Positions 39,748 to 56,273 of a stretch of 64,000 bases of DNA are shown one piece after another (positions within the stretch are counted from its first letter, which is position 1; each line of letters starts with the position of its first letter). The DNA comes from an uncultured Bacteriovoracaceae bacterium (GTDB lineage Bacteria; Bdellovibrionota; Bacteriovoracia; Bacteriovoracales; Bacteriovoracaceae). Location: positions 29,233-93,232 of the forward strand of contig CBIHNP010000009.1 of assembly GCA_966211875.1 (NCBI GenBank). Reading direction: 5' to 3'. Position numbers and translations under genes: made by a program. Under the pieces are notes generated by a model, which ran no database searches, was not told the origin of the DNA, and saw nothing but the letters and a program-made list of their open reading frames with translations.

Positions 39748-39777
39748 TTCTCAAGTTTTTATAATTTCGTTCTAGAT

Positions 39778-40473
39778 TTAATTTCCTGAATTTTTCTCAG
39801 TGATTGATAAAAGTTGAGCTAGCTGAATTCTAGTTGCTTCATTGTTTATCTGTTTTTTACAAATAGAAATAGATAGGCAGTTATAAAACGACAAATATTT
39901 AATTTGATCAAATTGTTTTAAGTTTGAATTTGTTGTAGCAAGGAAAATAAAGAGTGATTGGGCGTACTTTTCAGATTCTGGTTTTATATTAATACTTGAA
40001 ATAAAATCTGTTCGATAAAACTCAAATAATTTTATTAGCTCATCGATATCTAATTTGTTGCTTTGGTCACGATCATAATCATGAAAGATAGATTCAATAT
40101 TAATTAGAGAAAAAACAATTTGATTCATCTCATTTTTATTTAAACTTGTCTTATCATTGGAGTTCAATTTTAGATCAGCTTCGATTTCTTCAAGATAAAT
40201 TTCGCCATTATTATCTTCACCTAAAAATGCTTTTAAAGATGAGAGTGATTCTTTTAAGGCCCATTTATCGAGCAACATAGGCAAAAGGAGATTGTTAAGG
40301 CATTTACGTTCAATCCTTTCTTGATCAATATTATCTCGGCATACAGAAGTTAAAGTTGCCGTGACTTCATTCAGTTTTAAAAACTTTTCTGTATTTAAAG
40401 CGCTTAAAGAATTACTTGCATAAGATGAGATACTCGCTAGGAATAATACACAAAGGACAATCATTTTTTTCAT
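39778..40473 (-). CDS. secreted EF-hand-like calcium-binding protein
   Basis: Signal peptide. Canonical 12-residue loop DRDQSNKLDIDE (positions 1,3,5,9,12 = D,D,S,D,E) plus a weaker DNNGEIYLEEIE loop. Confidence 0.55.
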   Translation of the reverse strand: MKKMIVLCVLFLASISSYASNSLSALNTEKFLKLNEVTATLTSVCRDNIDQERIERKCLNNLLLPMLLDKWALKESLSSLKAFLGEDNNGEIYLEEIEADLKLNSNDKTSLNKNEMNQIVFSLINIESIFHDYDRDQSNKLDIDELIKLFEFYRTDFISSINIKPESEKYAQSLFIFLATTNSNLKQFDQIKYLSFYNCLSISICKKQINNEATRIQLAQLLSITEKNSGN

Positions 40474-40687
40474 AACAACCTTCATAAAATAAAAATTCTT
40501 TTAATAGTACTGAATATTTAGGCTAGAGTGGAGAGAGGGTTGTAAGGGATATAGAGGTGTCTAGGATTTAGACACTTTTTTAGAAAGTTATCTTAAATTT
40601 ACAGCTGCTTACCATCTTGACCATAACTTGATTATTCAACCTTTTAGATTTTGTAAGAGGAAGTCGAAGAGCCTTGATCAAGGCTTT

Positions 40688-43687
40688 ATGCAATTTAAAA
40701 TAGCAATCAAAGTATTCCAAATTTCGTTCTTTTTTATAATTCCTTCAATATTGAAGGGTGAAGTCTTGTATAGCAATCGAGGAGTTTCTAAGTCAAATGA
40801 ATCATCTAATCTTCTTGAGCGAATACAGAGTATCCCAAAGTTTTCGAAACTAGTTGATCTGACTGGTGATCTTGCCAGTGAAAAGAATTGTTCTAGTACT
40901 CTGGAAGATGTTGGGAAAATGGTGAATGGGTTCAATGGCTGTAGTGGCTATTTATCTAATGAAGAGAACATTAATAAAAGTTCAGAGGCCATTAAAACTC
41001 GAGAGGATTATATTAAAGAGCTTGGGTTTAAAAAATCTGATTCGTTTATAGAGTTAGTCAAAAATCATGAATATGAAAGAGCATATCAATTTCTTCAAAT
41101 ATATTATGATGACGACGTTCTTTTTAAAAAGGATAAAAATGGGGATACCGTATTTCATGTTCTTGCTCGCGAGTGCCAAGACCCTCAAGCTCAAAAGTTT
41201 TTGCTATTGTTGTTTGCCCCAGGATATCAAACTGGTTTTATAGCTCCTTTAAAAATTAAAACATCTGAAGCAGACAATAAAAGAATTCAAAAGAAATGCT
41301 CGAGCATGACACCTGAGGAAGCCATGACTAAAATATGGCCACAAAAAATATTACCATTTTCAAATAAAAATGGAACAAATGTTTTAGACAGTATGCCGAA
41401 TAATTGCCAAGGGACTTTAATATATCAAACCCTTTCTGGCGAATTTGATACTCATCTTGGAGAATATTTATCTCGAAAAGATTTTACGCCAGCTAAGCTT
41501 AAAAGTTTATTTCCCGATTCTTATGAAAACAAAATGGCTCTTATAATGTCTACGCAGCCTATAGATAAAGTACAAAATTTTTTTGGTGATTATAATTTTT
41601 CAAATTTAGATTTTGGAAAATACTTTGAAAGATTTTTGCCAAAAACAGATGAGGAACAATATCAAGCTAATAATGATTTTATTGTTTCCAAGCTTACTCT
41701 TAGTTCAATACAAAAAGCTAAAGAAGGAAGATTAGATGATCCAACAGTTGAGCTCCTTTTAACTGCAGGTAATTTTGTACAGAAAGATGCTGATGGTGAT
41801 ACGCTTTTAGATTCAGTTCGAAAGAATAATCAGAGTTCTAAATATTTCCCCAAACTTCAAGTAGCTTTGAATAATCCTGTTTTAAGAGCAATTAATAACG
41901 AAGATAGTTCAGATCCATATTTAAATGAATTTCTTAAAAATGGAGACACTCAGAAAGGTATCGGTATCTCAATTCCTTTTTTCAAATATGTTGGCAATAG
42001 TAAGAATGAAGAATTTAAAAAGAAAATTTTTGATTACTACAGAGTATCAGTAGATTCAGATGATGGTTTTGTTAATCAGATAAATGAATTATTTTCCAAA
42101 ACCCAAGAGGTCATCGCCCCAGATCAGCTTAAGTCACTTGTTCACGATTTATGTATGATCTCTGAAAAAGTTAATAATCAGATTGATTGTGAGAAATTCG
42201 AAAAAAATATGATTTCAAACATTCAGAAATATGGAATGAATGTTGGTTTTATCACTCCTGTTTTGAATTTAATAGACCAAGCAAGCTTGTATGGACAAAC
42301 CACAATAGCTTATTTTCTAAATTCTCTTGTAAATAGAGTAAATCCCCAATTGGCAGAAGCAATAGCTTCTAGAAAAAACTTTACTACTAATATTGATCCA
42401 GCATTGTTTGAGAAAATGGTTCCATATGTACTTGATAAAATCAACCAAGGAGATGTTGAATATTCTCCAGATAGATATAGATTAAGAGAATTTGTTGCAA
42501 AAGCATTTCAAGATTCAATAGAAGAAAAATCTCCAATTATTGGTTTAGGAGTTATACAGCCAGCTCCATTGAATAGCGCCCACCTTTACGGTATTTCAGA
42601 AAAAGGAGAACCGATCTATATTAAAAGTATGATAGATAATAATCTAAGGAGCGATGGAAAAATTACTTTAAAGTCATTGCCATCTACTTTAGGAAATAAG
42701 GTGGTAGATTTGGTAAAATGCAATGATTTTTCTAGCTGCAGTACTGTTGCGATTAAGTTGACTGACCTTGCAATTGGAGGCGCTGAAAATGCAACGATTA
42801 AAGGAGCAAAAATTATAACCTCTGACGAAGATGTCAGATCTTTGATCACGTCGAGTAATTTAAATACTTGCCGGGCTGTCTGTGGTTCCTTACTTTTTAC
42901 AGATATCGCACTAGGAAGTACCTCTGAAGTGCTCTCAATTGTTAATATAGATGGTGTTGCGACCAAGGTTGCTAAGGCGAGAATTGCATCAAATGCTCTT
43001 ATTAAAGGAACCAATGTCTTCGAGTCCATAGAAGGTTTTTTTATTGAATCTGAAGAAGATTTTGTTAGAGCAAATGAATGTTCAACAAATTGCATTGTAC
43101 AAGATACATTCAATAAGGTTGCAGACAAAGAAAAATTAATAAAAATCAAAAAAGATGCGATTACATTTTTAGATTCTAAAAGTATGAAAATGGCTCAACT
43201 ACAAAAATCATTAGATTCTATTAGGGCCCTTGCAGGTAACAATGCAACCAATTTGGGAATGAGAGATTTAATAGGAGCTTTAAACAATGAGGTTAAATCA
43301 AGCATTATTCCCCAATTTCAAAATTATGTAGAAAAATTTAATATTAGCAGTTCGATAATTATGAATTCAAAAGATTCGAAAACAATCCAAAATGAAGAAT
43401 TGAACATAGCGTTAGCTGAAAATTCATTGATGAATAAAATTATTTCATTGGGCAATAGTTACAGTCAGCGAATTTATCAGCTTAATAGAGTTATTGCTAG
43501 AGAAGAAGCAATGAATAGTAGAGGAGATCCTACAGGGGCAGGAGGTCATGGACGCCCTATTGGACCACCACCGACTACAATTCCATCGATTCCTGACCCT
43601 GTTAGTACTCCTGTTGCTGGTCCATCACCATCAGTACCTAGCTCAACCTCACCCAGTGGTCTAAATATTTCCATTCCAACCTGGTAA
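40688..43687 (+). CDS. ~1000-aa protein of unknown function with an N-terminal TM/signal, two ankyrin-like segments and a Pro-rich tail
   Basis: ATG 40688 is preferred over the TTG at 40628. KDKNGDTVFHVLAREC and KDADGDTLLDSVRKN resemble ANK repeat cores (weak). The C-terminus is GRPIGPPPTTIPSIPDPVSTPVAGPSPSVPSSTSPSG. Confidence 0.7.
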   Translation: MQFKIAIKVFQISFFFIIPSILKGEVLYSNRGVSKSNESSNLLERIQSIPKFSKLVDLTGDLASEKNCSSTLEDVGKMVNGFNGCSGYLSNEENINKSSEAIKTREDYIKELGFKKSDSFIELVKNHEYERAYQFLQIYYDDDVLFKKDKNGDTVFHVLARECQDPQAQKFLLLLFAPGYQTGFIAPLKIKTSEADNKRIQKKCSSMTPEEAMTKIWPQKILPFSNKNGTNVLDSMPNNCQGTLIYQTLSGEFDTHLGEYLSRKDFTPAKLKSLFPDSYENKMALIMSTQPIDKVQNFFGDYNFSNLDFGKYFERFLPKTDEEQYQANNDFIVSKLTLSSIQKAKEGRLDDPTVELLLTAGNFVQKDADGDTLLDSVRKNNQSSKYFPKLQVALNNPVLRAINNEDSSDPYLNEFLKNGDTQKGIGISIPFFKYVGNSKNEEFKKKIFDYYRVSVDSDDGFVNQINELFSKTQEVIAPDQLKSLVHDLCMISEKVNNQIDCEKFEKNMISNIQKYGMNVGFITPVLNLIDQASLYGQTTIAYFLNSLVNRVNPQLAEAIASRKNFTTNIDPALFEKMVPYVLDKINQGDVEYSPDRYRLREFVAKAFQDSIEEKSPIIGLGVIQPAPLNSAHLYGISEKGEPIYIKSMIDNNLRSDGKITLKSLPSTLGNKVVDLVKCNDFSSCSTVAIKLTDLAIGGAENATIKGAKIITSDEDVRSLITSSNLNTCRAVCGSLLFTDIALGSTSEVLSIVNIDGVATKVAKARIASNALIKGTNVFESIEGFFIESEEDFVRANECSTNCIVQDTFNKVADKEKLIKIKKDAITFLDSKSMKMAQLQKSLDSIRALAGNNATNLGMRDLIGALNNEVKSSIIPQFQNYVEKFNISSSIIMNSKDSKTIQNEELNIALAENSLMNKIISLGNSYSQRIYQLNRVIAREEAMNSRGDPTGAGGHGRPIGPPPTTIPSIPDPVSTPVAGPSPSVPSSTSPSGLNISIPTW

Positions 43688-43689
43688 GT

Positions 43690-44421
43690 ATGAAAATTAA
43701 AACTAAAATTTGGCTATCTTTCGCAATAGACGCTTTTATTGATACATTTCTGTTTTTAATGTTATTAGCGATATTGGGCGATTACTTAAAAACAGAAATA
43801 TTAGTTAGGTGGTGGTTTTGTATTCCTCTGTTTATAATTTTTTTTCTGACTGTTTCCATAATTTCGATTGGTACGACAGCATATACATTTGGTTTTTATT
43901 TTGTTGGTTTACGCTTTATTGATTATAGAATGATTAACTATAAAAATTTTTTTCTGTTTAACGTTGAAAATTTTTCGAGGGAAAATTTAAAGCTTTCACA
44001 AACTGATGTTTTAAGGAAAAGATTATCAGGAAGATCCCAAGGTATTGTGATAGCAGGAGAGGCTTTTTTAGTAATTGCCTTAACGAAGGGACTAAGTATT
44101 ACTCTTCATTATTATTTTCCACATTTTCAACAAAAATACATTCCAGTTAATAGTGAGATTTTCATTGTGCTTTTCTTATTTCATTTTTTGTTTCCTGTAT
44201 TTTTTGGAGCTGGACCATATTCTGTTTTAACAAAAAATTACTTGTTGGATAAGAAAGGTGAGCAAGCTAGTTGGTGGAAGTTTTTTATTCGGGTTATTTT
44301 GATGATATCGACACTCGGGCTTGCTCCATATATTATAATAGATAAGAAGAAAAAAATATATTTAGACGATTGGGTTTCACAGTCGTTTTACGTTTGTCTT
44401 GTAGAGCAGAAGAATGAGTGA
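43690..44421 (+). CDS. polytopic membrane protein (weak RDD-like N-terminus)
   Basis: 243 aa with about 5-6 hydrophobic helices. Starts 2 nt after the stop of the large gene. Confidence 0.6.
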   Translation: MKIKTKIWLSFAIDAFIDTFLFLMLLAILGDYLKTEILVRWWFCIPLFIIFFLTVSIISIGTTAYTFGFYFVGLRFIDYRMINYKNFFLFNVENFSRENLKLSQTDVLRKRLSGRSQGIVIAGEAFLVIALTKGLSITLHYYFPHFQQKYIPVNSEIFIVLFLFHFLFPVFFGAGPYSVLTKNYLLDKKGEQASWWKFFIRVILMISTLGLAPYIIIDKKKKIYLDDWVSQSFYVCLVEQKNE

Positions 44422-44788
44422 AAAATTTAAACTATTTTTTGATTATTTATTTGATACAAAGAAAAAGTTAACGCGCAAATTTTTTTTAATACATTTCTTT
44501 TTGGACACATTAATAATTCTCATTCTAACTTTGGCAATTTCTTGGCCAATTGCTTTTTTTATTCTTTTAATCACCAATGCTCCTATCACTGTAGATGGCA
44601 TTCATATGAAAATGGGACTTTTTACTGGCATTTTACTTACCTTATTAATTGTACTTAACAAGTTATCAGTTATTATAAGGCGCTTAAATGATTTGAAGTT
44701 GAATCGATGGCTTTCTGTGCTTCTATTTGTTCCAATCGTAAATTTAATATTTAATCTCTTTCTTTTTTTTAAAAAAAGTGAGGATTAA
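44414..44788 (+). CDS. DUF805 (YhaH-like) inner-membrane protein
   Basis: RRLNDLKLNRWLSVLLFVPIVN matches the DUF805 RRLHD..S.WW motif. There are 3 TM segments. Overlaps the upstream gene by 8 nt. Confidence 0.7.
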   Translation: MSEKFKLFFDYLFDTKKKLTRKFFLIHFFLDTLIILILTLAISWPIAFFILLITNAPITVDGIHMKMGLFTGILLTLLIVLNKLSVIIRRLNDLKLNRWLSVLLFVPIVNLIFNLFLFFKKSED

Positions 44789-44847
44789 CTATTTATTCAT
44801 CTCAATTTGAAATTATTTTATTCGGACAGAATTTTTCTTGAGCTTAA

Positions 44848-44857
44848 AATGGCGCAC
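44848..44857. repeat. left copy of the 10-nt direct repeat aatggcgcac (candidate attL core), followed by tRNA-like ...tttcgaac...
   Basis: Identical to 56195-56204, which covers the CCA end of tRNA-Arg. Lies in the gap between convergent genes. Confidence 0.5.
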
Positions 44858-44937
44858 CCACGTAGTGGAGTTTCGAACTTCTTGTATGCTTAATGAACAA
44901 AATCAGCAACTTTATGGTTAAACCTAGTTAACTCTGA

Positions 44938-45666
44938 TTAGCTTTTTCCAGTATTAAGCTTTTTTTGCTCTTCAATCTCTTTTTCTTTCAGTTCATCTGC
45001 CTTTATAGAATCTTCAATCTCGCTATTTGCATCCTTTGACTGAACCTTTGCAAGAGCTGTTAATACAGGCCTTACAAGTGATCCTGTGTATTTGATAATG
45101 TTGAATAGGTTTGCAAGATTAACCATTAGGAGCGAATAAAAAATTACCACGATTACATTCATTACATGCTTTGCTCTTAGGGCAGAATAATAATTTCCTA
45201 CGTGAATATTATCGACAAAACTATAGTCTACAAAAGTTAGCAGACAAAAAATAATTCCAAAAACACTTAACATTAGCGAAAATATAATTACTGAATATGA
45301 AATCACCATTAATTGGATTCTAAGTGAATTAATTGCGCTAAGCTTTTTGTCAGTCAGGTCGGCTATTACATTATTCGCTGCTAATTCATAGAATGGGACG
45401 AGTGATGAAATTAATAAACCTGTTACGATTGCCAAGATTTGAATTATGTTTGATCTAAATCCATCTGTTGGAGTTGAATATTTACAAAAGCAAACAAATG
45501 CGATTCCTATTGGTATGCAAACTACCCAAACATAAAAACCCCAAGGATAGCCTTTCGCCTCTTCAGTTTCTGCCTGATGTAGCTTTACAAGCGTATCCCA
45601 AACAGTAAGTCCTTTTAATTTTTCAGCGCAGAATCTTTTAAGATTCTTGTACGAACTTGATAACAT
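44938..45666 (-). CDS. 4-TM membrane protein with a charged coiled-coil tail (unknown function)
   Basis: 242 aa with four long hydrophobic helices. Its start overlaps the upstream 395-aa gene by 29 nt. Confidence 0.65.
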   Translation of the reverse strand: MLSSSYKNLKRFCAEKLKGLTVWDTLVKLHQAETEEAKGYPWGFYVWVVCIPIGIAFVCFCKYSTPTDGFRSNIIQILAIVTGLLISSLVPFYELAANNVIADLTDKKLSAINSLRIQLMVISYSVIIFSLMLSVFGIIFCLLTFVDYSFVDNIHVGNYYSALRAKHVMNVIVVIFYSLLMVNLANLFNIIKYTGSLVRPVLTALAKVQSKDANSEIEDSIKADELKEKEIEEQKKLNTGKS

Positions 45667-46825
45667 CTAGTGCTTCCCTTTTAAAACTCGATTTAATAGG
45701 ACGTCCATCATCGTCTAGTTTAAGCTTATCAGTCACATCAATTCCCATTGAGAACTCAAGCTTCTCTCTTACTAGCAAAGTCCTTGTAACTCCATTTACC
45801 TTAATGGTTAGTGACATCTTTTTTTCTAAAGAGGTGTCGAGGTCTTTTAAAGCATAAAAGTGCTTTAACTTTGTTTCAACATACCCCTGTTTGTCAGAAG
45901 AATTTACAAAATCATTCCATGAAAATGAACCATAAGGTAAATGCATTGATCCTGAAAAAGATTGAGGTCGCGCAATCTTTCCTACTGATCCGGCCTTTGA
46001 TCCCTTAGTGACTGTAGTTGGTGATTCTAAAACCTCAACATTAATATTTGTTACCTGAGGCATAAATCCTTCTTTAGATTTTACAAAGCATGGGGCAATC
46101 CACATTTTTACCATTAAGCCTTGAAGACGAAAGTAGTTATTAATTGCCTTCTTAAAAACTGAAATAGGACTTTTACTACCTATTTCCTGTGTAATTAAAT
46201 ATCCAAGTGTAGATCCTGGTTCAAGCGCCATGAAGTATGAATAGTCCAAAACATAACTCTCTTCTTTTGACACTGCATACTTTGAAGTCGGTTTACCTTT
46301 TTCAAGATCTTCAATTATTTCTCCTGGTATTCCAGAAGTCCCCAACTTAACAACACCATATATAGAATGCGAAACCTTGTCTGTATTAGCAAATTTATAA
46401 GCTCTATATGGTTCTTTCTTTTTTGTAGGACGCTTTATAATAACATCATCATTTAAGTCCTTATACTCAGCACAGTGCTCAGTCATAAATGCAACCATTA
46501 GATCTAGGAAGTTAACTTCAACATCTTCATATTTAATCTTGTTTGAGTTTCCTGTATAAGTTTTATGAGAGATGGTATTCATTTTATCAATTACCAAATA
46601 ATCTAAGTCTTCAAGATCACCTCTATTTGTTTCTTCCTCTGGCTCCTCTGTAACTACTTCAGATTCTCCATCCTCAACTGCATCTGCTTTGGCAGATTCA
46701 GCTTCATCCTTTTTTCTTGAATAATCAATTTTTGTAAAAGCTACTTTATATGCATTTAGAAATAATCTACTACCACTCAAAACGATCTCCCTTGTTATGA
46801 TCAATGGAATATCGGTTTTTAACAT
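45638..46825 (-). CDS. 395-aa hypothetical protein with an acidic linker (unknown function)
   Basis: No motif recognised. Residues ~40-75 are strongly acidic (DEAESAKADAVEDGESEVVTEEPEEE). First gene of a two-gene unit. Confidence 0.65.
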   Translation of the reverse strand: MLKTDIPLIITREIVLSGSRLFLNAYKVAFTKIDYSRKKDEAESAKADAVEDGESEVVTEEPEEETNRGDLEDLDYLVIDKMNTISHKTYTGNSNKIKYEDVEVNFLDLMVAFMTEHCAEYKDLNDDVIIKRPTKKKEPYRAYKFANTDKVSHSIYGVVKLGTSGIPGEIIEDLEKGKPTSKYAVSKEESYVLDYSYFMALEPGSTLGYLITQEIGSKSPISVFKKAINNYFRLQGLMVKMWIAPCFVKSKEGFMPQVTNINVEVLESPTTVTKGSKAGSVGKIARPQSFSGSMHLPYGSFSWNDFVNSSDKQGYVETKLKHFYALKDLDTSLEKKMSLTIKVNGVTRTLLVREKLEFSMGIDVTDKLKLDDDGRPIKSSFKREALDVIKFVQES

Positions 46826-46880
46826 ATCTATATAAATTTTTTTGTCATCTTGTTTTTAAATTGTCATTGGAGTTTGCAAT

Positions 46881-47081
46881 CTAGTTTTGAAACACATCTG
46901 TAGGCATGAATAGTTCCTTCAACATTTTTATATGTGGGAAAAACCATTTTTCAATTTCTTTTTGGCGTAAATAGATTTGAGAGCAGTTGTGGTTACCAAA
47001 TTTCTCTTTTGTATGTTGATAGCTCGGTTGAGAATTGAACTCATATCCGTAATGAATAAGATTACTTTCCCTAGAGGTCAT
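46881..47081 (-). CDS. 66-aa ORF, possibly the tail of a decayed gene
   Basis: The same frame stays open ~130 nt further upstream (..SYDFEQFHWEICDLRGFSFKDQDNNFFIFRKV-M..) without any ATG/GTG/TTG. Confidence 0.25.
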   Translation of the reverse strand: MTSRESNLIHYGYEFNSQPSYQHTKEKFGNHNCSQIYLRQKEIEKWFFPHIKMLKELFMPTDVFQN

Positions 47082-47453
47082 AACTTTTCTAAAAATAAAA
47101 AAATTATTATCCTGATCCTTAAAAGAAAACCCTCGTAAATCACAAATCTCCCAATGAAATTGTTCAAAATCATAGGACGATTTTTCACCAAAACTGCCAT
47201 GTCTACTTCAAAAGAAGCTTAAAAATATACCCTTATTTAACCCACGAATAAGGAAAAAACTTCCCAATAAATTCAAAAATCAGGCATGTGATATAAATTA
47301 ATGTAGAGCAAATAAGTCTCCTATTATTGTCGACTAATAGAAGTCAAGGCAAAAGCCCCTTGGCTCGCTGCACATTACGGGAGTCCGGAATGAGACTGCT
47401 TAAGCTTCAATTTAGATATTATTATCAATGGAAAGATAGAAAAGGAGTTTATC

Positions 47454-47582
47454 GTGTTTGAAATTTTAGAAAGAATAATAGGTGTAATTGGTGAGGTGGT
47501 TGTATGGGCCTCTCGTCACCCAGATGTCATTAAAAAAGGATTTATATTTGTTAAGGCATTAATTGAAGCCACCAAGGCTTGA
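47454..47582 (+). CDS. possible 42-aa small protein
   Basis: AAGGAG SD 6 nt before the GTG. Reads VFEILERIIGVIGEVVVWASRHPDVIKKGFIFVKALIEATKA. Convergent with the operon end. Confidence 0.25.
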   Translation: MFEILERIIGVIGEVVVWASRHPDVIKKGFIFVKALIEATKA

Positions 47583-47590
47583 ATTATAAT

Positions 47591-47856: not shown

Positions 47857-48216
47857 TTAAGACTTATGAAGATATGACTTTTTGTATGCTTCAAATTCAT
47901 CAGGTGAAATAAGCTTTTCGTCTAAAAGCTTTTTCATCTCCAATAATGATTTCACATTTCCAACCTTAGCTGTTTCAGATTCACCAACATCTTTTCTCAT
48001 TTGTGAAACTTCTTTCTTAAGAGTTCTGATTACGAAATACCCAAGGGAGACTATGAACAGAAGAGTTCCAAGTGCCATGGAGCCAATTTGAAATAATTTA
48101 ACAACTATTGATTGACCGTTAAATAAGCAAAAAGCCGCAAGCATTAGACATACACCCAGTACACCTGAAACAATAAACATCTTTTTAACGGTTGGGTTTT
48201 CATTGGTAATTAACAT
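47857..48216 (-). CDS. 2-TM protein with a C-terminal SHOCT domain
   Basis: GGAG SD before ATG 48216. C-terminus LLEMKKLLDEKLISPDEFEAYKKSYL fits the SHOCT pattern. Confidence 0.6.
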   Translation of the reverse strand: MLITNENPTVKKMFIVSGVLGVCLMLAAFCLFNGQSIVVKLFQIGSMALGTLLFIVSLGYFVIRTLKKEVSQMRKDVGESETAKVGNVKSLLEMKKLLDEKLISPDEFEAYKKSYLHKS

Positions 48217-48217
48217 A

Positions 48218-48625
48218 CTACACTCCAAGGATTGATTTCTTGGCTTTTGAGAACTCCTCTTCTGTAATTACTCCTTCAGTTCTTAAGAGATCAAGCTCTC
48301 TGATCTTGTCAGCAGGAGAAACTGCATCAGCTTTGCTTAAAATGCTTTGAAGCTTGTTTGCAACTTGAATTTCAATAGCTGGTTTCAGATTAGCAACTGT
48401 ATCAATTCCGCTAAGAATCTTTCTCTTAGATTCATTTTCAACTGCAACATCTTCAGCTTCTTCGGTCTTTGATCTGATACGCTTATAAAAAGCATGACCA
48501 CCAACTCCTACAATAAGTGCAAGTCCCAAAAATAGAACTTTTCCAACAGGATTCGTATTTACCAATGACAAAACTGCAAAAGTTACCATTAGCACCCGAG
48601 AAATGATTAAGACAAAGCGATTCAT
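48218..48625 (-). CDS. 2-TM protein with a C-terminal SHOCT domain
   Basis: AGGAGAG SD. C-terminus IRELDLLRTEGVITEEEFSKAKKSIL fits the SHOCT pattern. Confidence 0.6.
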   Translation of the reverse strand: MNRFVLIISRVLMVTFAVLSLVNTNPVGKVLFLGLALIVGVGGHAFYKRIRSKTEEAEDVAVENESKRKILSGIDTVANLKPAIEIQVANKLQSILSKADAVSPADKIRELDLLRTEGVITEEEFSKAKKSILGV

Positions 48626-48661
48626 TTAAACTCTCCTGCTTCTTAATATGAAACTGCTGCT

Positions 48662-49114
48662 TTAGTGAACTAATCGGAAGGAAGCATAGTATGTTGTTTG
48701 ACCAAGAAATTTATCTTGCCTGAAATAACAATAAGCCACTTCGTACTTAATCTGAGTTTCAGATGTTGCAATCATTCTAGTTATATTGGAATTTGCCTTT
48801 TGAACCCGTTTGATATCCCAAGATGCTTTGGAGTTATAAAAATAATCAAGAGCTGCTTTAAGGTCATCTGCCCTAACGGTAATGACCTCTTCTGGATTTG
48901 ATACTTTATTTTCAAAACAACTCAATTCACTATTTCTAACGATAGCTAAGAATGGTTTTTTAGATTCATAAGTAATGTCGTCTTTAATGACGACTTCTTT
49001 GAAGTAAATTTCTTCTCTATGCCCAAATCTCTCAAGTGAAGAAGAACTACATGAGCATACACTAATGCCAATTACCATTAGTAAAAAGAGCATTAATGTA
49101 TGCTTGCAATTCAA
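48662..49114 (-). CDS. hypothetical lipoprotein
   Basis: Lipobox GISVCSC and a TTG start. ATG 49093 is an alternative. Confidence 0.5.
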   Translation of the reverse strand: MNCKHTLMLFLLMVIGISVCSCSSSSLERFGHREEIYFKEVVIKDDITYESKKPFLAIVRNSELSCFENKVSNPEEVITVRADDLKAALDYFYNSKASWDIKRVQKANSNITRMIATSETQIKYEVAYCYFRQDKFLGQTTYYASFRLVH

Positions 49115-49123
49115 CTTTAAATC

Positions 49124-49774
49124 CTAATGAGCAGAGCTTGTTGTTTCTGTTACATTGGAAGATTGCGGCTCAAGCACCTTGTCCATCAATTGCTTCTTTA
49201 GCAAATCCTGAATGGCACTTTGCTCTTTCACGCCGTACTTCTTATCGAGCGTATATTTGTACGCCTTCATCAGGTCAGAAGCGGGAACTCTTACAATAAC
49301 TCTGCATTCTTTAGTGTAGTCGTAATTCAGATTATGATTTGGAGTTGCATATTTCACACACTGTGCATCTTTAAAGTTACTAGTTAAGCCTGTTAAAGCT
49401 TTTACCTCTGTAACGGTTATGCCTATATTCTCAACGTTGCCGTTATCACCAGTAGAAGTTGATATTGCACTTTGAATAATCTTTTTAAATTCTGTAGGTG
49501 CGCTATTTAATAATCTTGAGCGAGCGTCAGCTTCAGCGAGAGTCTGCATTTGCTTTTCATTCTTATCAACAACATCAGTTACTGAAGCAATGGCAACAAA
49601 ATCAGATCCTACTAAGCCGTCTTTTTCAAACCTAGAATCAAAATCATTACCAATTACTTTGCGTGGCTTATTCATGTGTTCAACCACTAGATCGTTTTGT
49701 TCATCAGTTTTACTCTTTGGAACAGAAGAGCATGAGGCCAATGTAACCAATCCAATAATTAATAAATATTTCAT
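49124..49774 (-). CDS. hypothetical lipoprotein (LPP20-like, weak)
   Basis: AAGGAG SD and lipobox LVTLASCSS. Confidence 0.55.
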   Translation of the reverse strand: MKYLLIIGLVTLASCSSVPKSKTDEQNDLVVEHMNKPRKVIGNDFDSRFEKDGLVGSDFVAIASVTDVVDKNEKQMQTLAEADARSRLLNSAPTEFKKIIQSAISTSTGDNGNVENIGITVTEVKALTGLTSNFKDAQCVKYATPNHNLNYDYTKECRVIVRVPASDLMKAYKYTLDKKYGVKEQSAIQDLLKKQLMDKVLEPQSSNVTETTSSAH

Positions 49775-49797: not shown

Positions 49798-50094
49798 TTA
49801 TTCATCTTCCCCATCTTTTTTAACAAGTTTTGTAATTGATATTTTATAGTGGCCACTGTGGATCAGTGCCTCTGTAAATAACTCTTCAACAGACGCTTTG
49901 GGCTTACGACCAAAAGCCAGCTCATCAACCGTTAGCTTAAAATAACTCGCAACCTTTTCAAGTTGATAAATATTAGGAGCTGTCCCTGCAATCCACTGCT
50001 GAATTGTGCTTCTTGGAACATCAACTCTATTTGCAAGTTCTGCAACAGAGAGATTGTGAGATTTCAATAAAGCCTTCAGCTTCTTATCGAGCAT
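49798..50094 (-). CDS. XRE-family helix-turn-helix regulator
   Basis: LSVAELANRVDVPRSTIQQWIAG HTH. ATG 50094 is preferred over the GTG at 50103. Confidence 0.8.
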   Translation of the reverse strand: MLDKKLKALLKSHNLSVAELANRVDVPRSTIQQWIAGTAPNIYQLEKVASYFKLTVDELAFGRKPKASVEELFTEALIHSGHYKISITKLVKKDGEDE

Positions 50095-50321
50095 AAAAAA
50101 CACCTACCTGTATTTTATTATCGGACACATTGAACCTGTTTATAGACAAAGCTTTACTTGCGGCTGACATAGCCATGATTAAAGCAAAACCAAGAGATAC
50201 TGCCATGATTACGACACGGTCTTTATTTTAAATTAACAATCAATGACAACTTTTTGAGTGAGCTTACGTCAGTAAACATATGGATAATGAGCGTGACCAT
50301 GCCACTCAGAATGGCTAATGG

Positions 50322-50909
50322 TCAGGGCTTTTTTGAGTGCTTCTTTATTGCTGTTGAAATTGATCCTTGTGAGATATTTAGCAGCTCACTAATTTCTTTG
50401 TATGTGTATCCTTCATTTCTTAATTTCAAAATAAGTTCGTAATTAATTATCGAAGGTCTTCCAATCTGTTTTCCTTTGGCGCGAGCATTGGTGATACCAT
50501 TGCGAACTCTCTCTGAGATTAGGTCTCTTTCAAGCATTGCTATTGCGGAAATGATAGTGAACATTGCTTTTCCGATTGCGCTAGAGAGGTCAACATTTTC
50601 GCTGAGACTAATAAAGTTAACCTTTAGTCGTCCAAACTCTTCAAGTGTATCAAGTAAGAATTTTGTACTTCTAGCGAATCTGCTAAATGAATACACAATC
50701 ACTGTATCAATTGTACCTGCTCTGACTTCTATCATTAGCTTATCCAACTCTGGTCTTGATGATTTTGTTCCTGATACTCCTGAGTCTTCAAAAGATTTAA
50801 TAACAGTAATGTCTCGCGCTTTACAATATTCCTCTAGTGCTCTCTTTTGTGACTGTAATCCATTTTGCTGTTTATCAGTACTTGTTCTGCAATATGTACA
50901 AGCTTTCAT
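50322..50909 (-). CDS. small serine recombinase (resolvase/invertase family)
   Basis: N-terminal catalytic YCRTSTDKQ, a resolvase core and a C-terminal HTH GYTYKEISELLNISQGSI. Confidence 0.9.
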   Translation of the reverse strand: MKACTYCRTSTDKQQNGLQSQKRALEEYCKARDITVIKSFEDSGVSGTKSSRPELDKLMIEVRAGTIDTVIVYSFSRFARSTKFLLDTLEEFGRLKVNFISLSENVDLSSAIGKAMFTIISAIAMLERDLISERVRNGITNARAKGKQIGRPSIINYELILKLRNEGYTYKEISELLNISQGSISTAIKKHSKKP

Positions 50910-51022: not shown

Positions 51023-52354
51023 TTAGCTGAAACTTACTCCTTTACGAGAGTGCATCTTTGCACGGTTGCGGAGTAGATTATTTTTCAATAAATGATAAAT
51101 GTCCTTTTTATCTGAATTGATTCTGAATCCTGAATAACCCCAAAGCACACGAAATAATTCTTCCAGCTCTGAATAACCAATTAAGTGAAAATCGACAAAT
51201 TCTCCATTATTAATTTTATTAATTAATTCAATTATCGGTGTTTGATGTGTCTTAATGGTTGCAAATGAATCTTTTGTCACTAGAGCTTTGATTTGCAAAT
51301 AGATATTCAGTTTATCGATTTTCAAAATATGTTTATCTGTTAAAAACATTACCTGTCTAAGAAGTTCGATGTCTTGCTGAAAAATATAATCCAAATCAAT
51401 CGGCCCATCATTAATTCTTGCTATTAATCGAATTGCTTGAGAGTACTTATCACTAAAAAGATTCTTACTTTTTACTTTAATTCTTTCCTTAATCTCAATT
51501 AGGCGTAAGTTTTGATTTTCAAGCTCTTCCAATTCTAGGTCACGCAAGCGTTCATGAGTATATTGCCAATGTCCAATTGCTGATCTTCCAAAGTTTGGAA
51601 ATGTGCCATATAGAATATTCTCTTGAATTTCTGATTCTATAAAATCAAAAATGCTATCTCTCTCAGTTTCATTTTCAGAAAACGAAGGTATTGCAAGCAT
51701 GATATTATTGTACTCATCGTTTAATGGAACAAGCTCTTTGGCTTCACCTGGCTGATAAATCTTTTCACCTACAACTTGGGCCAATGGCTCACCGTAAAAG
51801 CAAACCCTGATAATTGGTGACCACTTAAACCCTAAAGCTTCTACTTGTTTTGCAATTCCTTCAGGTGAACTGAGTTCATCTACGTTAACTAGTAGGGAGC
51901 TATTTGTTGACTTCCATTTGATTACTGTATTGCCTCTGACATCTACTTGTTCAGAATGATAAATCTGTACAAATCCCTTTATTATATTTGGGACAGAGGT
52001 GTCCTCGTCCAAATAATATTGTTTTGGATTTTCAAAATATTCTTCAGCGATATCCATTAGAAGATCAAACTCATCTATATCAGGCGCGCCTTCATTTAAT
52101 ATAAAAAAATCATTCGCTTCTCTTTGTTGAATATCAAACTCTGTGTCTAGATTGTAAATTGAGCTTCCTTCTAAGTACTGAATTGATTCCTTGTCCTCCT
52201 CAACAAAGAAAACTTCAGAAAGAACTTCGTCCCAAAGATTTAATAACTCTAAATCATCAGTGTCATGTGTGTTGTCAGTGTCATCACTTGCAAACTTGAA
52301 ACGAAATTCTCCATCTTCATAGCGAATAGAAACATTTCTCTTTACCTGTGACAT
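51023..52354 (-). CDS. 443-aa acidic hypothetical protein
   Basis: TAGGAG SD. No motif recognised. The N-terminal half is rich in D/E. Confidence 0.6.
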   Translation of the reverse strand: MSQVKRNVSIRYEDGEFRFKFASDDTDNTHDTDDLELLNLWDEVLSEVFFVEEDKESIQYLEGSSIYNLDTEFDIQQREANDFFILNEGAPDIDEFDLLMDIAEEYFENPKQYYLDEDTSVPNIIKGFVQIYHSEQVDVRGNTVIKWKSTNSSLLVNVDELSSPEGIAKQVEALGFKWSPIIRVCFYGEPLAQVVGEKIYQPGEAKELVPLNDEYNNIMLAIPSFSENETERDSIFDFIESEIQENILYGTFPNFGRSAIGHWQYTHERLRDLELEELENQNLRLIEIKERIKVKSKNLFSDKYSQAIRLIARINDGPIDLDYIFQQDIELLRQVMFLTDKHILKIDKLNIYLQIKALVTKDSFATIKTHQTPIIELINKINNGEFVDFHLIGYSELEELFRVLWGYSGFRINSDKKDIYHLLKNNLLRNRAKMHSRKGVSFS

Positions 52355-54642: not shown

Positions 54643-56196
54643 ATGAATCCAAATATTTTGTATAACAATAAAGATGCAACAGTAATTATTAGAATTTCAA
54701 GTGGGAGGCAAGCTGATGGCTTGTCTCCTGATGTACAACGAGATGAAATACAGTCTTACTGTAAAAAACTTGGTCTTAATCCAGTTAAAGAGTTTTGCAT
54801 TATTGAGAGTGCTAAGGATTCAAAGAATAGAGTTAAGTATAACGATGCCCTTCGCTACACAGAAAAGAATAAAATTGGAAATATTATCTTCTACATGATG
54901 GATAGAGAAGCGCGAAACTTTACTGACCTTGAAGCTAATGAAGCTAAAGTTATGAAAGGAGTTTTTAATATCCACTACGCTAAGGAAAATTACATTTTAC
55001 ATCGTGATACCTCCGACTCTGATCTACTAACAAGAAGCTTTTCTGGGATAATGAATAAGCAGTACTCCAAAATCCTAAGTACTAAAGTTAATGATGGTAT
55101 GACTAAGAAAGCTGAGGGGGGTTGGTATCCAAGTAATAACCCTCCACTTGGTTATGTCTGTCAAAAAGCAACTGATACCGATAGTGGGAGAATAAAAAAC
55201 AGAGGTGGAACCATTGTTCTTGATCCTAATGAACTTAATAGAAAAATTGTCTCTCGTGAATTTGAACTCAGAGCTAATGGTTTATCATTTGAGAAAATCA
55301 GAGAACAAGTTATTTCAGATGGATTAATCAGTGGTAATGCCATAAAAAAATACAGAGCATGTTCGATTCAGCGTAGATTGCAAAATCCATTTTATCGAGG
55401 TCAGTTTACTTGGAAAGATACTTTGTACGATGGAAAACATGAAATCTTTATTCCTAAGCATATTCTTATAAAGGTTGATGAGTCTTTTGGATTAAGAGCT
55501 AGTGCTGTTAGAAGAGACAAGAATGAGTATACTGCTTTGACTGGTGGGTGGTTAAAGTGCGCGTGTGGCTGTCATATTGTTTATGATCCAAAGAAAAAGA
55601 TTAATCGTAAGACACAAGAGTCCCGAACCTATCACTACTATCATTGCACTAATGGTAAAAGGGTGCATGATTCGCTTTCAGGCATGAATGTTACTAACGA
55701 TCAAATTTGGATTCAACTTGGTACAGCGGTGAATGACATTCACATTTCGGAACAACTTGCTAAGGACATTTCAGAAGCTCTTAATCAGGTTGAGTCCAAG
55801 GCTCATGTTACTACGAAGAAACAAATTGAGCTTCTCCAAGTGGAAGAAGCTCTCTTTCAAACTCGTGAAGATCGACTTATTACAATGCGTATGGATGGTG
55901 AACTTGATAAGCATATTTTCGATGTACAGTTAAAGCGTATTAGAAATGATAGACAGTCTGTTATTGAGCAAATTGAAGTTCTGCAATTGAGTTTAACATC
56001 AGCAGTTGTTGAAACAGTTCAATCTGTTCTCGAACTCGCTAAGAATGCACAATCATTCTGGAATTCTCAATCCGTTAGTGAGAGGAAGAAAGTCTTAGAC
56101 ATGATTCTCTCGAACCCAGTACTTAATGGTCTAAATGTCGAATATAAATTAAAAAGACCTTTTGAGTTGTTGAAAGAAATGAAGGGAAATACAGAA

Positions 56197-56226
<30 letters not shown>
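54643..56226 (+). CDS. large serine recombinase (integrase)
   Basis: Catalytic VIIRISSGRQ, a recombinase domain, zinc-ribbon LKCACGCH...YYHCTNG and a C-terminal coiled coil. The last 30 nt overlap tRNA-Arg. Confidence 0.9.

Positions 56227-56273
<47 letters not shown>

What the first reader, a model, noticed from the sequence alone, without database searches (positions are those of the whole stretch)
44938..46825. Overlapping two-gene module (395-aa protein plus 4-TM protein) at the integrase-distal end of the element: candidate defence or abortive-infection system
These are the first genes inside the left repeat of the 11.4-kb element. The 395-aa protein has a short N-domain, a strongly acidic ~35-residue linker and a ~300-aa C-domain with no motif I recognise. 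Its last 29 nt overlap the start of a 242-aa protein with four long TM helices and a charged coiled-coil tail. A soluble sensor-like protein coupled to a small membrane effector, sitting at the cargo position of a satellite-like element, is the architecture of several known anti-phage systems. The order and sizes do not obviously fit any that I can name. For example, Kiwa has the membrane gene first.
Basis: inference. Interest (0 to 1): 0.7.

Follow-up and report, generated by a model that had tools for sequence, protein, structure and literature searches.

The report
Divergent RexAB-like phage-exclusion gene pair
Two overlapping, unannotated genes at the end of a tRNA-integrated mobile element most likely form a very divergent relative of phage lambda's RexA/RexB system, in which a cytoplasmic sensor triggers a small four-helix membrane protein to shut down an infected cell; no standard database recognises the family.

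Summary
Gene A (45638-46825, minus strand) overlaps gene B (44938-45666, four hydrophobic helices) by 29 nt, just inside a tRNA-Arg-integrated element. Gene A is 395 aa from the ATG but probably 380 aa from a TTG at 46780.

Neither protein matches Pfam, PADLOC, PHROGs or NCBIfam. An exhaustive search still found 12 distant relatives of A. Two more turned up on Acinetobacter plasmids. In all 11 distinct loci with enough downstream DNA, a membrane-protein gene follows directly:
- Nine partners are homologues of B.
- Two partners are AbiC/AbiP-like abortive-infection proteins.

A and B divergence is correlated (Mantel r 0.77). Several loci lie among defence genes or on plasmids.

That is wrong. 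Soluble gene first, then a small 4-TM gene, carried on a mobile element, is the layout of lambda RexAB and the validated actinophage pairs Butters gp30/31, Sbash gp30/31 and Toast gp42/41.

Homology to these is suggested but not proven:
- The full-length alignments are collinear and share motifs.
- Shuffle-tested Smith-Waterman alignments give p of about 1e-3.
- The best fold match is a kinetochore chain, inferred to be Chl4, a reported structural relative of RexA.
- hhalign and HMMER are not significant.

Verdict: probably a deep-branching Rex-type abortive-infection module, a new variant of a known kind. Function is untested.

The parts
45638..46825 (-). Gene A: a soluble protein, 395 aa from the ATG at 46825 but probably 380 aa from the TTG at 46780. 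It is a RexA-like candidate sensor and founds a family with no database entry.
   Evidence: The ORF is. It has no Pfam, PADLOC, PHROGs or NCBIfam hit. It has 12 relatives, aligned.
46787..46793 (-). Shine-Dalgarno AAGGGAG, 6 nt upstream of the TTG at 46780 (the probable real start of gene A).
   Evidence: Read from the sequence. The N-termini of all relatives align to this point. One contig's gene call gives a 380-aa product.
46598..46705 (-). Codons for the acidic insert of A (residues 41-76 in the 395-aa numbering; residues 41-80 carry a net charge of -15). It is specific to this locus.
   Evidence: Charge profile. It is absent from all relatives. It is modelled as disordered, with pLDDT below 50 for residues 52-95.
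44938..45666 (-). Gene B: a 242-aa protein with four hydrophobic helices, a RexB-like candidate effector. Its first 29 nt overlap the end of gene A.
   Evidence: The ORF is and the hydropathy analysis. Homologues follow A relatives in nine other loci. It has no database hit.
45673..45680 (-). Shine-Dalgarno AAGGGAAG for gene B, lying inside the 3' end of gene A (translational coupling).
   Evidence: Read from the sequence. L006 has the same 29-nt overlap.
44848..44897 (.). Degenerate copy of the 3' part of tRNA-Arg. It marks the integrase-distal (left) end of the element.
   Evidence: Sequence. Local alignment to 56195-56240.
56197..56273 (-). tRNA-Arg(TCT), the integration target at the right end of the element.
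   Evidence: ARAGORN and Rfam, 72.5 bits.
54643..56226 (+). Large serine recombinase (527 aa). Its 3' end overlaps the tRNA gene.
   Evidence: Pfam Resolvase plus Recombinase domains. ORF.
47345..47362 (-). Terminator-like hairpin after the upstream 83-aa gene. It suggests that A and B form their own transcription unit.
   Evidence: This is a consensus scan only and is weak evidence.

Best explanation
The pair is most likely a RexAB-type two-component phage-exclusion (abortive-infection) module, carried as cargo by a tRNA-Arg-integrated, primase-encoding element.

**Proposed mechanism.**
- Gene A encodes a cytoplasmic RexA-like protein with a basic alpha/beta core. It is the sensor and recognises a product of phage infection, either phage DNA or replication intermediates or a phage protein.
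- Gene B is translationally coupled to A. It encodes a RexB-like inner-membrane protein with four helices and probably both termini in the cytoplasm.
- When activated by A, B oligomerises into a channel or pore. It depolarises or permeabilises the membrane and stops growth of the infected cell before phage progeny are made.

**Shown here.**
- The genes, their overlap and their ribosome-binding sites.
- The four hydrophobic helices of B.
- Conservation and co-divergence of the pair.
- Exchange of B for an AbiC/AbiP-type partner in two loci.
- Location on mobile elements and beside defence genes.
- An architecture identical to validated Rex-type pairs.

**Inferred.**
- Homology to RexA and RexB.
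- Which protein senses and which one acts.
- The trigger.
- Membrane depolarisation.
- Any phenotype at all.
For: 1. **The pair is conserved.** An A homologue is directly followed by a membrane-protein gene in L005, L006, L008, L009, L010, L011, L012, L014 and L017 and on two Acinetobacter plasmids. The junctions range from a 29-nt overlap to a 67-nt gap. No locus with readable downstream DNA is an exception.
2. **Nine partners belong to one 4-TM family with B**. Pairwise identities of A and B correlate across eight of these loci (Mantel r 0.77, p about 2e-4).
3. **Two partners (L011, L014) are instead 2-TM proteins** that match Pfam putAbiC PF16872 and PADLOC AbiP. AbiC/AbiP are experimentally known lactococcal abortive-infection proteins (PMC13064643). 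This is the swapping of parts typical of defence systems.
4. **Context.**
   - The window's pair lies in an integrative element.
   - L005 holds a PDC-S41/AbiO/Nhi-like helicase and mREase_II-like and PDC-M09A-like genes.
   - L008 has PDC-S42 directly upstream, E 9e-30.
   - The plasmid copies lie three genes from a BrnT/BrnA toxin-antitoxin pair.
   - L006 has an XRE-type HTH gene directly upstream, as lambda has cI before rexA-rexB and Toast has its repressor gp43 before gp42-gp41.
5. **Same architecture as validated Rex-type systems** (PMC11077077, PMC6426596, PMC7542560, PMC12894663).
6. **Hints of homology.**
   - Foldseek of the better model (P0009, pLDDT 78, pTM 0.70) gives 8ovw chain N as its only probability-1.00 PDB hit (E 1.5e-3). 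I infer this chain is Chl4/CENP-N. The RexA structure paper lists Chl4, Iml3 and RdgC as structural relatives of RexA (PMC11077077).
   - Smith-Waterman with shuffles gives P0012 vs Toast gp42 p 7e-4, P0010 vs Toast gp42 p 1.2e-3 and the Acinetobacter B protein vs Toast gp41 p 3e-4.
   - Joint alignments of A with gp42 and gp30, and of B with gp41 and gp31, are collinear end to end with shared motifs.
   - Toast gp42 is the first non-family hit of the A profile.
7. **No conserved catalytic-type residue constellation is evident in A**, and most family members are basic. That fits a binding or sensor protein, like the DNA-binding RexA.
Against: - No experiment exists for this family.
- Sequence-profile tests of homology are not significant. 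hhalign of A1 against lambda RexA gives probability 0.2%. Against Butters gp30 plus Toast gp42 the best result is E 0.053 over 60 columns. The B profile against RexB or gp31/gp41 shows nothing. HMMER gives E 0.14 and 1.2 in a tiny database.
- RexA itself (8TWQ) is in the PDB sequence copy but is not among the top 50 Foldseek hits of either model. The Chl4 match covers only 156 columns at TM 0.25.
- The Smith-Waterman p-values are the best of about 75 comparisons. After correction they are only about 0.01-0.03 each.
- Only about 2 of the 5 larger metagenomic loci have strong defence neighbours. L006 has none.
- The family is rare, so no enrichment statistics could be computed.
- Nothing here decides whether A is the sensor and B the effector, or the reverse.
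Confidence: 0.55

Rival explanations
1. Kiwa-like logic with the roles reversed. The membrane protein B senses envelope or membrane disturbance caused by phage attachment or DNA injection. The soluble protein A is the effector: it binds incoming DNA and blocks replication or late transcription without killing the cell.
For: - Kiwa pairs a 4-TM protein with a soluble DNA-binding protein and works this way (10.1101/2023.02.26.530102).
- A has a basic core and no evident conserved catalytic-type residue constellation.
- Its best fold match is a subunit of a DNA-bound kinetochore complex (the 8ovw entry).
- RexA and its homologues bind DNA non-specifically (PMC11077077).
Against: - No PADLOC KwaA or KwaB hit, and no Pfam hit of any kind, for any of the 13 A-family or 9 partner proteins scanned.
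- The gene order is opposite to Kiwa's.
- KwaA builds a six-stranded cytoplasmic beta-barrel from its intracellular loop and C-terminus. B-family proteins have a short loop and mostly end about 10 residues after TM4.
- KwaB has a Rossmann-like N-domain. The A models show antiparallel hairpins instead.
- Replacement of B by AbiC/AbiP-type proteins, which are themselves sufficient for abortive infection, fits B-as-effector better (PMC13064643).
Confidence: 0.15
2. A toxin-antitoxin or addiction-like module, or a regulator of the element's own lifestyle. B would be a membrane toxin held in check by A. The pair would stabilise the element, or, like RexA in lambda, bias the element's own switch between maintenance and induction. 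Phage defence would be at most a side effect.
For: - The layout is that of translationally coupled pairs, with the neutraliser first and the toxin second.
- The pair sits on an integrative element and on small plasmids three genes from the BrnT/BrnA toxin-antitoxin pair.
- Lambda RexA acts independently of RexB on the lysis-lysogeny switch (PMC11077077; abstract seen).
Against: - A is 300-395 aa, far larger than typical antitoxins, and has no detectable DNA-binding HTH or RHH domain.
- The pair also occurs in apparently chromosomal contexts with no mobility genes in the region examined (L006, L017).
- Exchange for AbiC/AbiP-type partners points to phage exclusion.
- Toxin-antitoxin behaviour and abortive infection are not mutually exclusive, so this is partly a matter of emphasis.
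Confidence: 0.12
3. An unrelated, non-defence function. Examples are a lysis or holin-like cassette of a degraded phage or satellite, or a membrane transport or regulatory pair that happens to travel on mobile DNA.
For: - B is a small multi-helix membrane protein, as many holins are.
- The only significant structural matches of the window A model are three uncharacterised proteins from uncultured phage or prophage contigs in BFVD, with E from 2e-10 to 5e-5.
- No function has been demonstrated for any family member.
Against: - Neither A nor B has a PHROGs hit of any significance.
- A matches no lysin or enzyme family.
- tblastn of six A-family proteins finds nothing in 50,697 phage genomes.
- The pair occurs without any phage structural or lysis genes around it.
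- Its neighbours are defence genes rather than lysis genes.
Confidence: 0.08

Closest known systems
Bacteriophage lambda RexA/RexB exclusion system (Pfam PF15969 / PF15968)
   Same: - A soluble protein gene is followed directly by a small 4-TM inner-membrane protein gene on the same strand.
- It is carried by a mobile element (a prophage) and sits downstream of a repressor gene. L006 has an XRE HTH gene in the equivalent position.
- RexA is a basic, non-enzymatic DNA-binding dimer. The A family likewise shows no evident conserved catalytic-type residue constellation and is mostly basic.
- The best fold match of an A-family model is Chl4 (inferred identity), which the RexA paper lists as a structural relative of RexA (PMC11077077).
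   Different: - No sequence or profile similarity to RexA or RexB.
- RexA (8TWQ) is not among the Foldseek hits.
- A is 300-395 aa against 279 aa, and B is 160-242 aa against 144 aa.
- The genes overlap here, whereas lambda has a 15-nt gap.
Actinobacteriophage Rex-like pairs: Butters gp30/gp31, Sbash gp30/gp31, CarolAnn gp44/gp45, Toast gp42/gp41
   Same: - Sizes and layout are nearly identical. Butters gp30 is 403 aa and gp31 is 187 aa with four hydrophobic segments and an 8-nt overlap.
- They are experimentally shown prophage defence systems (PMC7542560, PMC6426596).
- Like A and B, Butters gp30 and gp31 have no significant Pfam hit.
- Weak but consistent similarity exists. Smith-Waterman p is about 1e-3 for A-family proteins against Toast gp42, and 3e-4 for a B-family protein against Toast gp41. 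The alignments are collinear with shared motifs.
- Butters gp30 also carries an acidic insert, at a different position.
   Different: - Profile methods do not reach significance.
- The hosts and elements differ: high-GC actinophages against a bacterium of about 38% G+C with a tRNA-integrated satellite-like element.
- No AbiC/AbiP-type partner variant has been reported for the actinophage systems, as far as the papers read here show.
Pseudomonas putida prophage RexABpp (PP_5643/PP_5644)
   Same: - It has a 4-TM partner whose activation by overexpression of the soluble protein permeabilises the membrane (PMC12894663).
- That is the mechanism proposed here.
   Different: - I did not have its sequences to compare.
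Lactococcal AbiC/AbiP group (Pfam putAbiC PF16872, PADLOC AbiP)
   Same: In two loci (L011, L014) the gene after the A homologue is a membrane-anchored AbiC/AbiP-type protein. So the A family is physically linked to a proven abortive-infection effector family.
   Different: - The window's B protein does not match AbiC/AbiP.
- AbiC and AbiP are described as single-gene systems (PMC13064643), whereas here they have an upstream partner.
Kiwa (KwaA/KwaB)
   Same: It is a two-gene system of a 4-TM protein and a soluble protein of about 315 aa (10.1101/2023.02.26.530102).
   Different: - The gene order is opposite.
- There is no PADLOC KwaA/KwaB hit and no Pfam DUF4868 hit.
- B lacks room for KwaA's cytoplasmic beta-barrel.
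- The A models show no Rossmann-like N-domain.

Membership tests
RexAB-type two-component exclusion systems | Two adjacent, co-oriented genes: a soluble protein gene first, then a small membrane protein gene | tested here: met
   The window has a 29-nt overlap. The same layout occurs in all 11 distinct related loci. Compare lambda, Butters and Toast.
RexAB-type two-component exclusion systems | Membrane component with four transmembrane helices | tested here: met
   Hydropathy shows four segments in B and in nine homologues. RexB, gp31 and gp41 align collinearly over all four segments. A dedicated topology predictor was not available.
RexAB-type two-component exclusion systems | Sequence membership in Pfam RexA (PF15969) / RexB (PF15968) or DUF4747 | tested here: not met
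   None of the 13 A-family proteins and none of the 8 B-type 4-TM proteins scanned hits these families. The validated Butters gp30 and gp31 fail this test too, so it is not a strict requirement of the class.
RexAB-type two-component exclusion systems | Soluble component has the RexA/RdgC-like two-domain fold | tested here: inconclusive
   The top Foldseek PDB hit of the P0009 model is 8ovw_N (inferred to be Chl4/CENP-N; E 1.5e-3, probability 1.00). PMC11077077 lists Chl4 as a structural relative of RexA. However, 8TWQ itself is not in the top 50.
RexAB-type two-component exclusion systems | Detectable homology to a validated member (Toast gp42/gp41, Butters gp30/gp31) | tested here: inconclusive
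   Smith-Waterman with shuffles gives p from 3e-4 to 1.2e-3 for three pairs, and the MSAs are collinear. hhalign gives E 0.053 and HMMER E 0.14, neither significant.
RexAB-type two-component exclusion systems | Carried by a prophage or mobile element, often just downstream of an immunity-repressor-type gene | tested here: met
   The window's pair is in a tRNA-Arg-integrated element with a serine recombinase and a D5/P4-type primase. Two copies are on Acinetobacter plasmids. L006 and L007 have an XRE HTH gene directly upstream. In the window the HTH gene (49798-50103) lies 3 kb upstream, not adjacent.
RexAB-type two-component exclusion systems | Phage exclusion with membrane depolarisation or permeabilisation that depends on both proteins, and a physical A-B interaction | not testable with these tools
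   This needs experiments. Co-divergence of A and B (Mantel r 0.77) is only indirect support for an interaction.
Kiwa | KwaB with a DUF4868 domain and KwaA with a 4-TM region plus a cytoplasmic beta-barrel; membrane gene first | tested here: not met
   There are no PADLOC or Pfam hits. The order is reversed. The cytoplasmic loop is short and most B homologues have no C-terminal domain (compared).
AbiC/AbiP group | Membrane-anchored protein matching putAbiC PF16872 or PADLOC AbiP | tested here: not met
   The window's B protein has no hit. The feature is met only by the partners in L011 and L014.
Phage holin / lysis cassette | Holin-family membrane protein next to an endolysin, within a phage lysis module | tested here: not met
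   There is no PHROGs or Pfam holin or lysin hit. No phage structural or lysis genes lie in the element or in the related loci.

The most novel reading that the evidence does not exclude
The A family would be a previously unrecognised, very deep branch of RexA-like sensors that can plug into alternative membrane effectors: either a RexB-like 4-TM protein or an AbiC/AbiP-type protein. That would tie the long-known 'single-gene' AbiC/AbiP abortive-infection proteins to the Rex paradigm. It would also show that Rex-type immunity is a widespread, modular class spread across distant hosts, yet invisible to current defence-finding tools. In this particular element, the 40-residue insert (net charge -15) in an otherwise basic, putatively nucleic-acid-binding protein would act as a built-in nucleic-acid mimic that keeps the sensor off until infection. 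Butters gp30 carries an analogous acidic insert at a different position.
Probability: 0.25. Interest if true: 0.7.

Novelty: new variant of a known kind. Interest (0 to 1): 0.5.

Why it matters
Rex is the oldest known abortive-infection system, and its mechanism is still unsettled. Only a few very divergent versions are known (lambda, some actinophages, one Pseudomonas prophage), and each was found by chance.

This locus adds a family that Pfam, PADLOC, PHROGs and NCBIfam all miss. It shows the same two-gene logic in unrelated hosts and vehicles: a tRNA-integrated element, Acinetobacter plasmids, defence islands in metagenomic contigs, and one NCBI genome assembly.

The natural exchange of the 4-TM partner for an AbiC/AbiP-type protein is a useful handle:
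- It argues that the soluble protein is the conserved sensor and the membrane protein the interchangeable executioner.
- It suggests that some AbiC/AbiP proteins work with a partner.

If confirmed, profiles built from alignments A1 and A2 could be added to defence-finder databases. The diversity of the family would also help define which features of RexA-like and RexB-like proteins are essential.

Tried and rejected
**Library scans.** Both proteins, and later 13 A-family and 9 partner proteins, were scanned against Pfam, PADLOC, PHROGs and NCBIfam. A and B had no meaningful hit. The Drt5 'hit' of A (E 0.011, 14.7 bits against a cut-off of 550) is noise.

**Homologue searches.**
- The word-indexed search found only the proteins themselves, and little more with a profile.
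- Scans of genome contigs (twice), viral contigs (twice) and metagenome contigs (twice) with sub-alignments of A or B, or with P0014, found no relatives.
- tblastn of six A-family proteins against phage genomes, and of the window's A against plasmids, found nothing. Only P0010 hit two Acinetobacter plasmids.

**Structure.**
- The first AF2 model, of the window protein, was mediocre (pLDDT 62) and gave no PDB match.
There is therefore no model of B.
- PDB sequence-profile searches were empty.

**Other checks.**
- An RNA component (retron- or ToxI-like) in the 760-bp upstream spacer was considered. Rfam found nothing there.
- Kiwa, holin/lysis and classical toxin-antitoxin readings were considered and ranked lower, as set out under the rivals.
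- A guessed accession for phage Sbash turned out to be another phage.
- The host organism could not be identified with the tools. The flanks are ordinary chromosomal genes: rsgA, a PPIase gene and recJ.
Full report
**1. What is in the sequence**

- Gene A runs 45638-46825 on the minus strand (395 aa from an ATG).
- Gene B runs 44938-45666 on the minus strand (242 aa).
- They overlap by 29 nt.
- B has four strongly hydrophobic segments, at about residues 40-66, 71-97, 114-154 and 164-192, and a charged C-terminal tail.
- A has a basic N-terminal segment and a very acidic stretch: residues 41-80 carry a net charge of -15. Its C-terminal part of about 315 residues is basic, with pI 9.0.

The element is real.
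- tRNA-Arg(TCT) lies at 56197-56273.
- The end of a 527-aa large serine recombinase gene overlaps it.
- A degenerate copy of the tRNA 3' part lies at 44848-44897, about 40 nt beyond the stop of gene B.
- The element also encodes a D5/P4-type primase-helicase, a second small serine recombinase, an XRE-type regulator, two SHOCT-domain membrane proteins and two putative lipoproteins. It has no virion genes.
- The right flank is ordinary chromosome: rsgA, a PPIase gene and recJ.

Two corrections apply.
- A probably starts at the TTG at 46780, giving 380 aa. That codon has a strong Shine-Dalgarno (AAGGGAG plus 6 nt), and the ATG has none. All relatives begin at the equivalent position. One gene call also chose it.
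- B's start has its own Shine-Dalgarno inside the end of A.

**2. Both proteins are invisible to standard resources but are not orphans**

Neither A nor B matches Pfam, PADLOC, PHROGs or NCBIfam. The word-indexed search of 5.8 billion proteins returned only the proteins themselves. All exact copies come from the same element in a few related samples.

The exhaustive phmmer search of 1.84 billion cluster representatives found 12 relatives of A. They are 155-365 aa long (two are fragments), are 24-55% identical to A over the matched stretches, and have E-values down to 4e-67. They are only 14-30% identical to each other apart from three closer pairs at 37-55%. They share these motifs:
- an N-terminal strand with an invariant Tyr;
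- R-x-I-x-G-x-I-x-x-G-x-x-G;
- F-x-F-x-x-x-P-x5-G-x-L-I-x4-G;
- a conserved Pro;
- G-x-F-x-W;
- N-G-x-x-R-T;
- D-V-T;
- D-x-D-G-x-P-x3-S-L-x-x-E-A.

No set of conserved residues suggestive of an active site is evident. None of the 13 proteins hits Pfam or, meaningfully, PADLOC.

**3. The pair is a conserved, co-diverging module with a swappable membrane partner**

I looked up the contigs encoding ten relatives. Every locus with enough downstream DNA has a gene that starts within a few bases of the A-homologue's stop, or overlaps it.

| Locus | Partner length | Junction |
|---|---|---|
| L005 | 161 aa | 4-nt overlap |
| L006 | 207 aa | 29-nt overlap, as in the window |
| L008 | 201 aa | 4-nt overlap |
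| L009 | 182 aa | abutting |
| L010 | 190 aa | 4-nt overlap |
| L011 | 291 aa | 4-nt overlap |
| L012 | 172 aa | 1-nt overlap |
| L014 | 307 aa | 20-nt overlap |
| L017 | 199 aa | abutting |

- Seven of these partners have four hydrophobic segments and are homologous to B. They share a conserved TM2 motif, G-x-L-I-A-S-x-x-P-F, and a cytoplasmic motif just before TM1.
- B's charged tail is unique to the window.
- tblastn with P0010 then found two Acinetobacter plasmids. Each has an A-like gene (286 or 305 aa) followed by a 176-aa 4-TM gene, and a BrnT/BrnA toxin-antitoxin pair lies three genes further on.
- Across the eight loci with a B-type partner tested, pairwise identities of the A and B proteins correlate (Mantel r 0.77, p about 2e-4). 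The two genes have therefore diverged together.
- In L011 and L014 the partner is instead a 2-TM protein with a soluble domain. It matches Pfam putAbiC (E 3.5e-9 and 9e-13) and PADLOC AbiP. AbiC and AbiP are experimentally established lactococcal abortive-infection proteins, now grouped as AbiC/P (PMC13064643).

**4. Context**
- L005 carries a PDC-S41/AbiO/Nhi-like helicase with a MazG-like gene, an mREase_II-like gene and a PDC-M09A-like gene.
- L008 has a PDC-S42 gene directly upstream (E 9e-30) and a DUF5677 gene.
- L010 has an IS21-type transposase pair and an Stk2-like kinase.
- L017, from an NCBI genome assembly, has an HNH/HRDC gene next door.
- L006 has no recognisable defence neighbour. 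It does have an XRE-type HTH gene immediately upstream of the pair.
- This is moderate, not statistical, support for an association with defence islands or mobile elements. The family is too rare for an enrichment test with the searches available.

**5. What it resembles**

Lambda has exactly this order: cI, then rexA (279 aa, soluble), then rexB (144 aa, 4 TM) (PMC11077077). The same layout holds for these experimentally validated pairs:
- Butters gp30 (403 aa) and gp31 (187 aa, four hydrophobic segments, 8-nt overlap) (PMC7542560);
- Sbash gp30/gp31 (PMC6426596);
- Toast gp42/gp41, directly after the immunity repressor;

Butters gp30 and gp31 have no significant Pfam hit either. The negative database results for A and B therefore say little.

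**6. Is it homologous to Rex?**

The evidence is suggestive but short of proof.

Against:
- hhalign of the A profile against lambda RexA, Butters gp30, or Butters gp30 plus Toast gp42 is not significant. The best result is E 0.053 over 60 columns.
- The B profile against RexB or gp31/gp41 shows nothing.
- In a small local database, Toast gp42 is the first non-family hit of the A HMM, but at E 0.14.
- RexA (8TWQ) is in the PDB sequence copy but is not among the top 50 Foldseek hits.

For:
- A second AF2 model, built on the compact family member P0009, is decent (pLDDT 78, pTM 0.70). Its only probability-1.00 PDB match is chain N of 8OVW, the yeast inner kinetochore (E 1.5e-3, 156 columns).
- From the depositors' lettering and the chain length, this chain is Chl4/CENP-N. 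That identification is my inference. The RexA structure paper names Chl4, Iml3 and RdgC as the structural relatives of RexA.
- Smith-Waterman alignments tested against 1,500 composition-preserving shuffles give these values:

| Pair | p | Note |
|---|---|---|
| P0012 vs Toast gp42 | 7e-4 | |
| P0010 vs Toast gp42 | 1.2e-3 | residues 1-140 against 1-146, collinear |
| Acinetobacter B protein vs Toast gp41 | 3e-4 | |

- These are the best of about 75 comparisons. Each is only about 0.01-0.03 after correction. Even so, both components point independently to the same reference system.
- Joint alignments are collinear end to end and line up the family motifs:
  - the N-terminal S-Y...Y strand;
  - P-x5-G-x-L-x-V-E-x-x-G;
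  - P-L;
  - G..W;
  - D-x-R-P;
  - in the membrane proteins, an N-terminal R-[FI]-N-I motif, the TM2 motif L-L...G-x-L-x-S, and the TM4 motif L-M-I-[LM]-x-R.
- The window model's only significant structural matches are three uncharacterised proteins of 277-322 aa from uncultured phage or prophage contigs.

**7. Mechanism proposed**

By analogy with Rex-type systems, A is the cytoplasmic sensor. It has a basic core, and relatives of the inferred fold bind or clamp DNA. B is the effector and collapses membrane integrity or potential when activated. Exchange of B for AbiC/AbiP-type proteins supports 'conserved sensor, interchangeable executioner'.

The acidic insert is peculiar to the window's A. 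Butters gp30 has an analogous insert at a different position. It could be an autoinhibitory nucleic-acid mimic, but this is speculation.

The main rival is the Kiwa logic, in which the membrane protein senses and the soluble protein acts on DNA. The sequence data cannot exclude the logic. Membership of Kiwa itself, however, is rejected:
- there are no KwaA, KwaB or DUF4868 hits;
- the gene order is opposite;
- B has no room for KwaA's beta-barrel;
- A has no Rossmann-like N-domain.

A toxin-antitoxin or element-stabilisation role and a non-defence role rank lower.

**8. Verdict**

- The interpretation as a candidate abortive-infection pair is supported computationally.
- The claim that it fits nothing known is wrong.
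- It is best described as a deep-branching, unannotated variant of the RexAB class, with a new twist in the alternative AbiC/AbiP-type partner.
- Function remains untested, and homology to Rex is probable but unproven.
- Interest is moderate.

Noticed in passing
window 47857-49774 (minus strand): Between the regulator gene and the A/B pair, the element carries four small envelope-protein genes. Two encode membrane proteins with C-terminal SHOCT-like domains (123 and 135 aa; the Pfam SHOCT match for the 135-aa protein is E 1.3e-5, just below the cut-off). Two encode putative lipoproteins with a Cys shortly after a hydrophobic leader (150 and 216 aa). They could be further exclusion or surface-modifying cargo.
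   Followed up: partly
window 50322-50909 (minus strand) and 54643-56226 (plus strand): The element has two serine recombinases. One is a 527-aa large integrase overlapping the tRNA. The other is a 195-aa resolvase/invertase-type enzyme that matches the catalytic domains of CcrB and XisF and Mpi-type invertases. The role of the small one (excision control or inversion) is unknown.
   Followed up: partly
window 51023-52354 (minus strand): A 443-aa acidic protein with no hit in Pfam, PADLOC, PHROGs or NCBIfam lies divergently upstream of the D5/P4-type primase gene (52994-54472). It is another orphan of the element.
   Followed up: no
window 37000-45000: G+C drops to 0.30-0.34 from about 37 kb. 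This is well to the left of the element's left end at 44.85 kb. The low-G+C region includes a 1019-aa protein (40628-43687) with a Pro-rich C-terminus and no family hit, a 243-aa membrane protein and a DUF805 protein. The left flank may itself be another island.
   Followed up: no
window 46826-47590: An unusually long spacer of about 760 bp lies upstream of gene A. It contains a called 66-aa ORF (46881-47081, minus strand) and a G+C-rich hairpin at about 47345-47362. Rfam finds no match there. The promoter and any regulator of the pair presumably lie in this spacer.
   Followed up: partly
L011 1193-2068 and L014 2130-3053: AbiC/AbiP-type (putAbiC) membrane proteins are encoded immediately after, and overlapping, A-family genes. 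This suggests that some members of this 'single-gene' abortive-infection family work with an upstream partner.
   Followed up: partly
L005 2118-6103: The contig with the P0008 pair looks like a defence island. It has a 622-aa PDC-S41/AbiO/Nhi-like helicase with an overlapping MazG-like gene, a DUF6998/mREase_II-like gene and a PDC-M09A-like gene.
   Followed up: partly
L022 6498-6986 and L023 6498-6986 (Acinetobacter plasmids NZ_CP026418, NZ_CP048683): A conserved 162-aa hypothetical gene follows the A-like and 4-TM pair on both plasmids, just before BrnT/BrnA. It might be a third component or a separate toxin.
   Followed up: no
L021 2689-3900 (Butters gp30, residues about 82-108): The validated Rex-like protein Butters gp30 carries its own strongly acidic insert (EEGDSDESADVDDHESVDDDAEQQ). 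It is at a different position from the acidic insert of the window's protein A. So acidic inserts recur in this class of proteins.
   Followed up: partly
L006 11761-17062: Downstream of the closest relative pair lie four genes that match no PADLOC model: 208 aa on the plus strand, and 282, 613 and 660 aa on the minus strand. The first three also have no recorded Pfam hit, and the 660-aa protein has a HATPase_c domain. This may be an unrecognised system next to the pair.
   Followed up: partly
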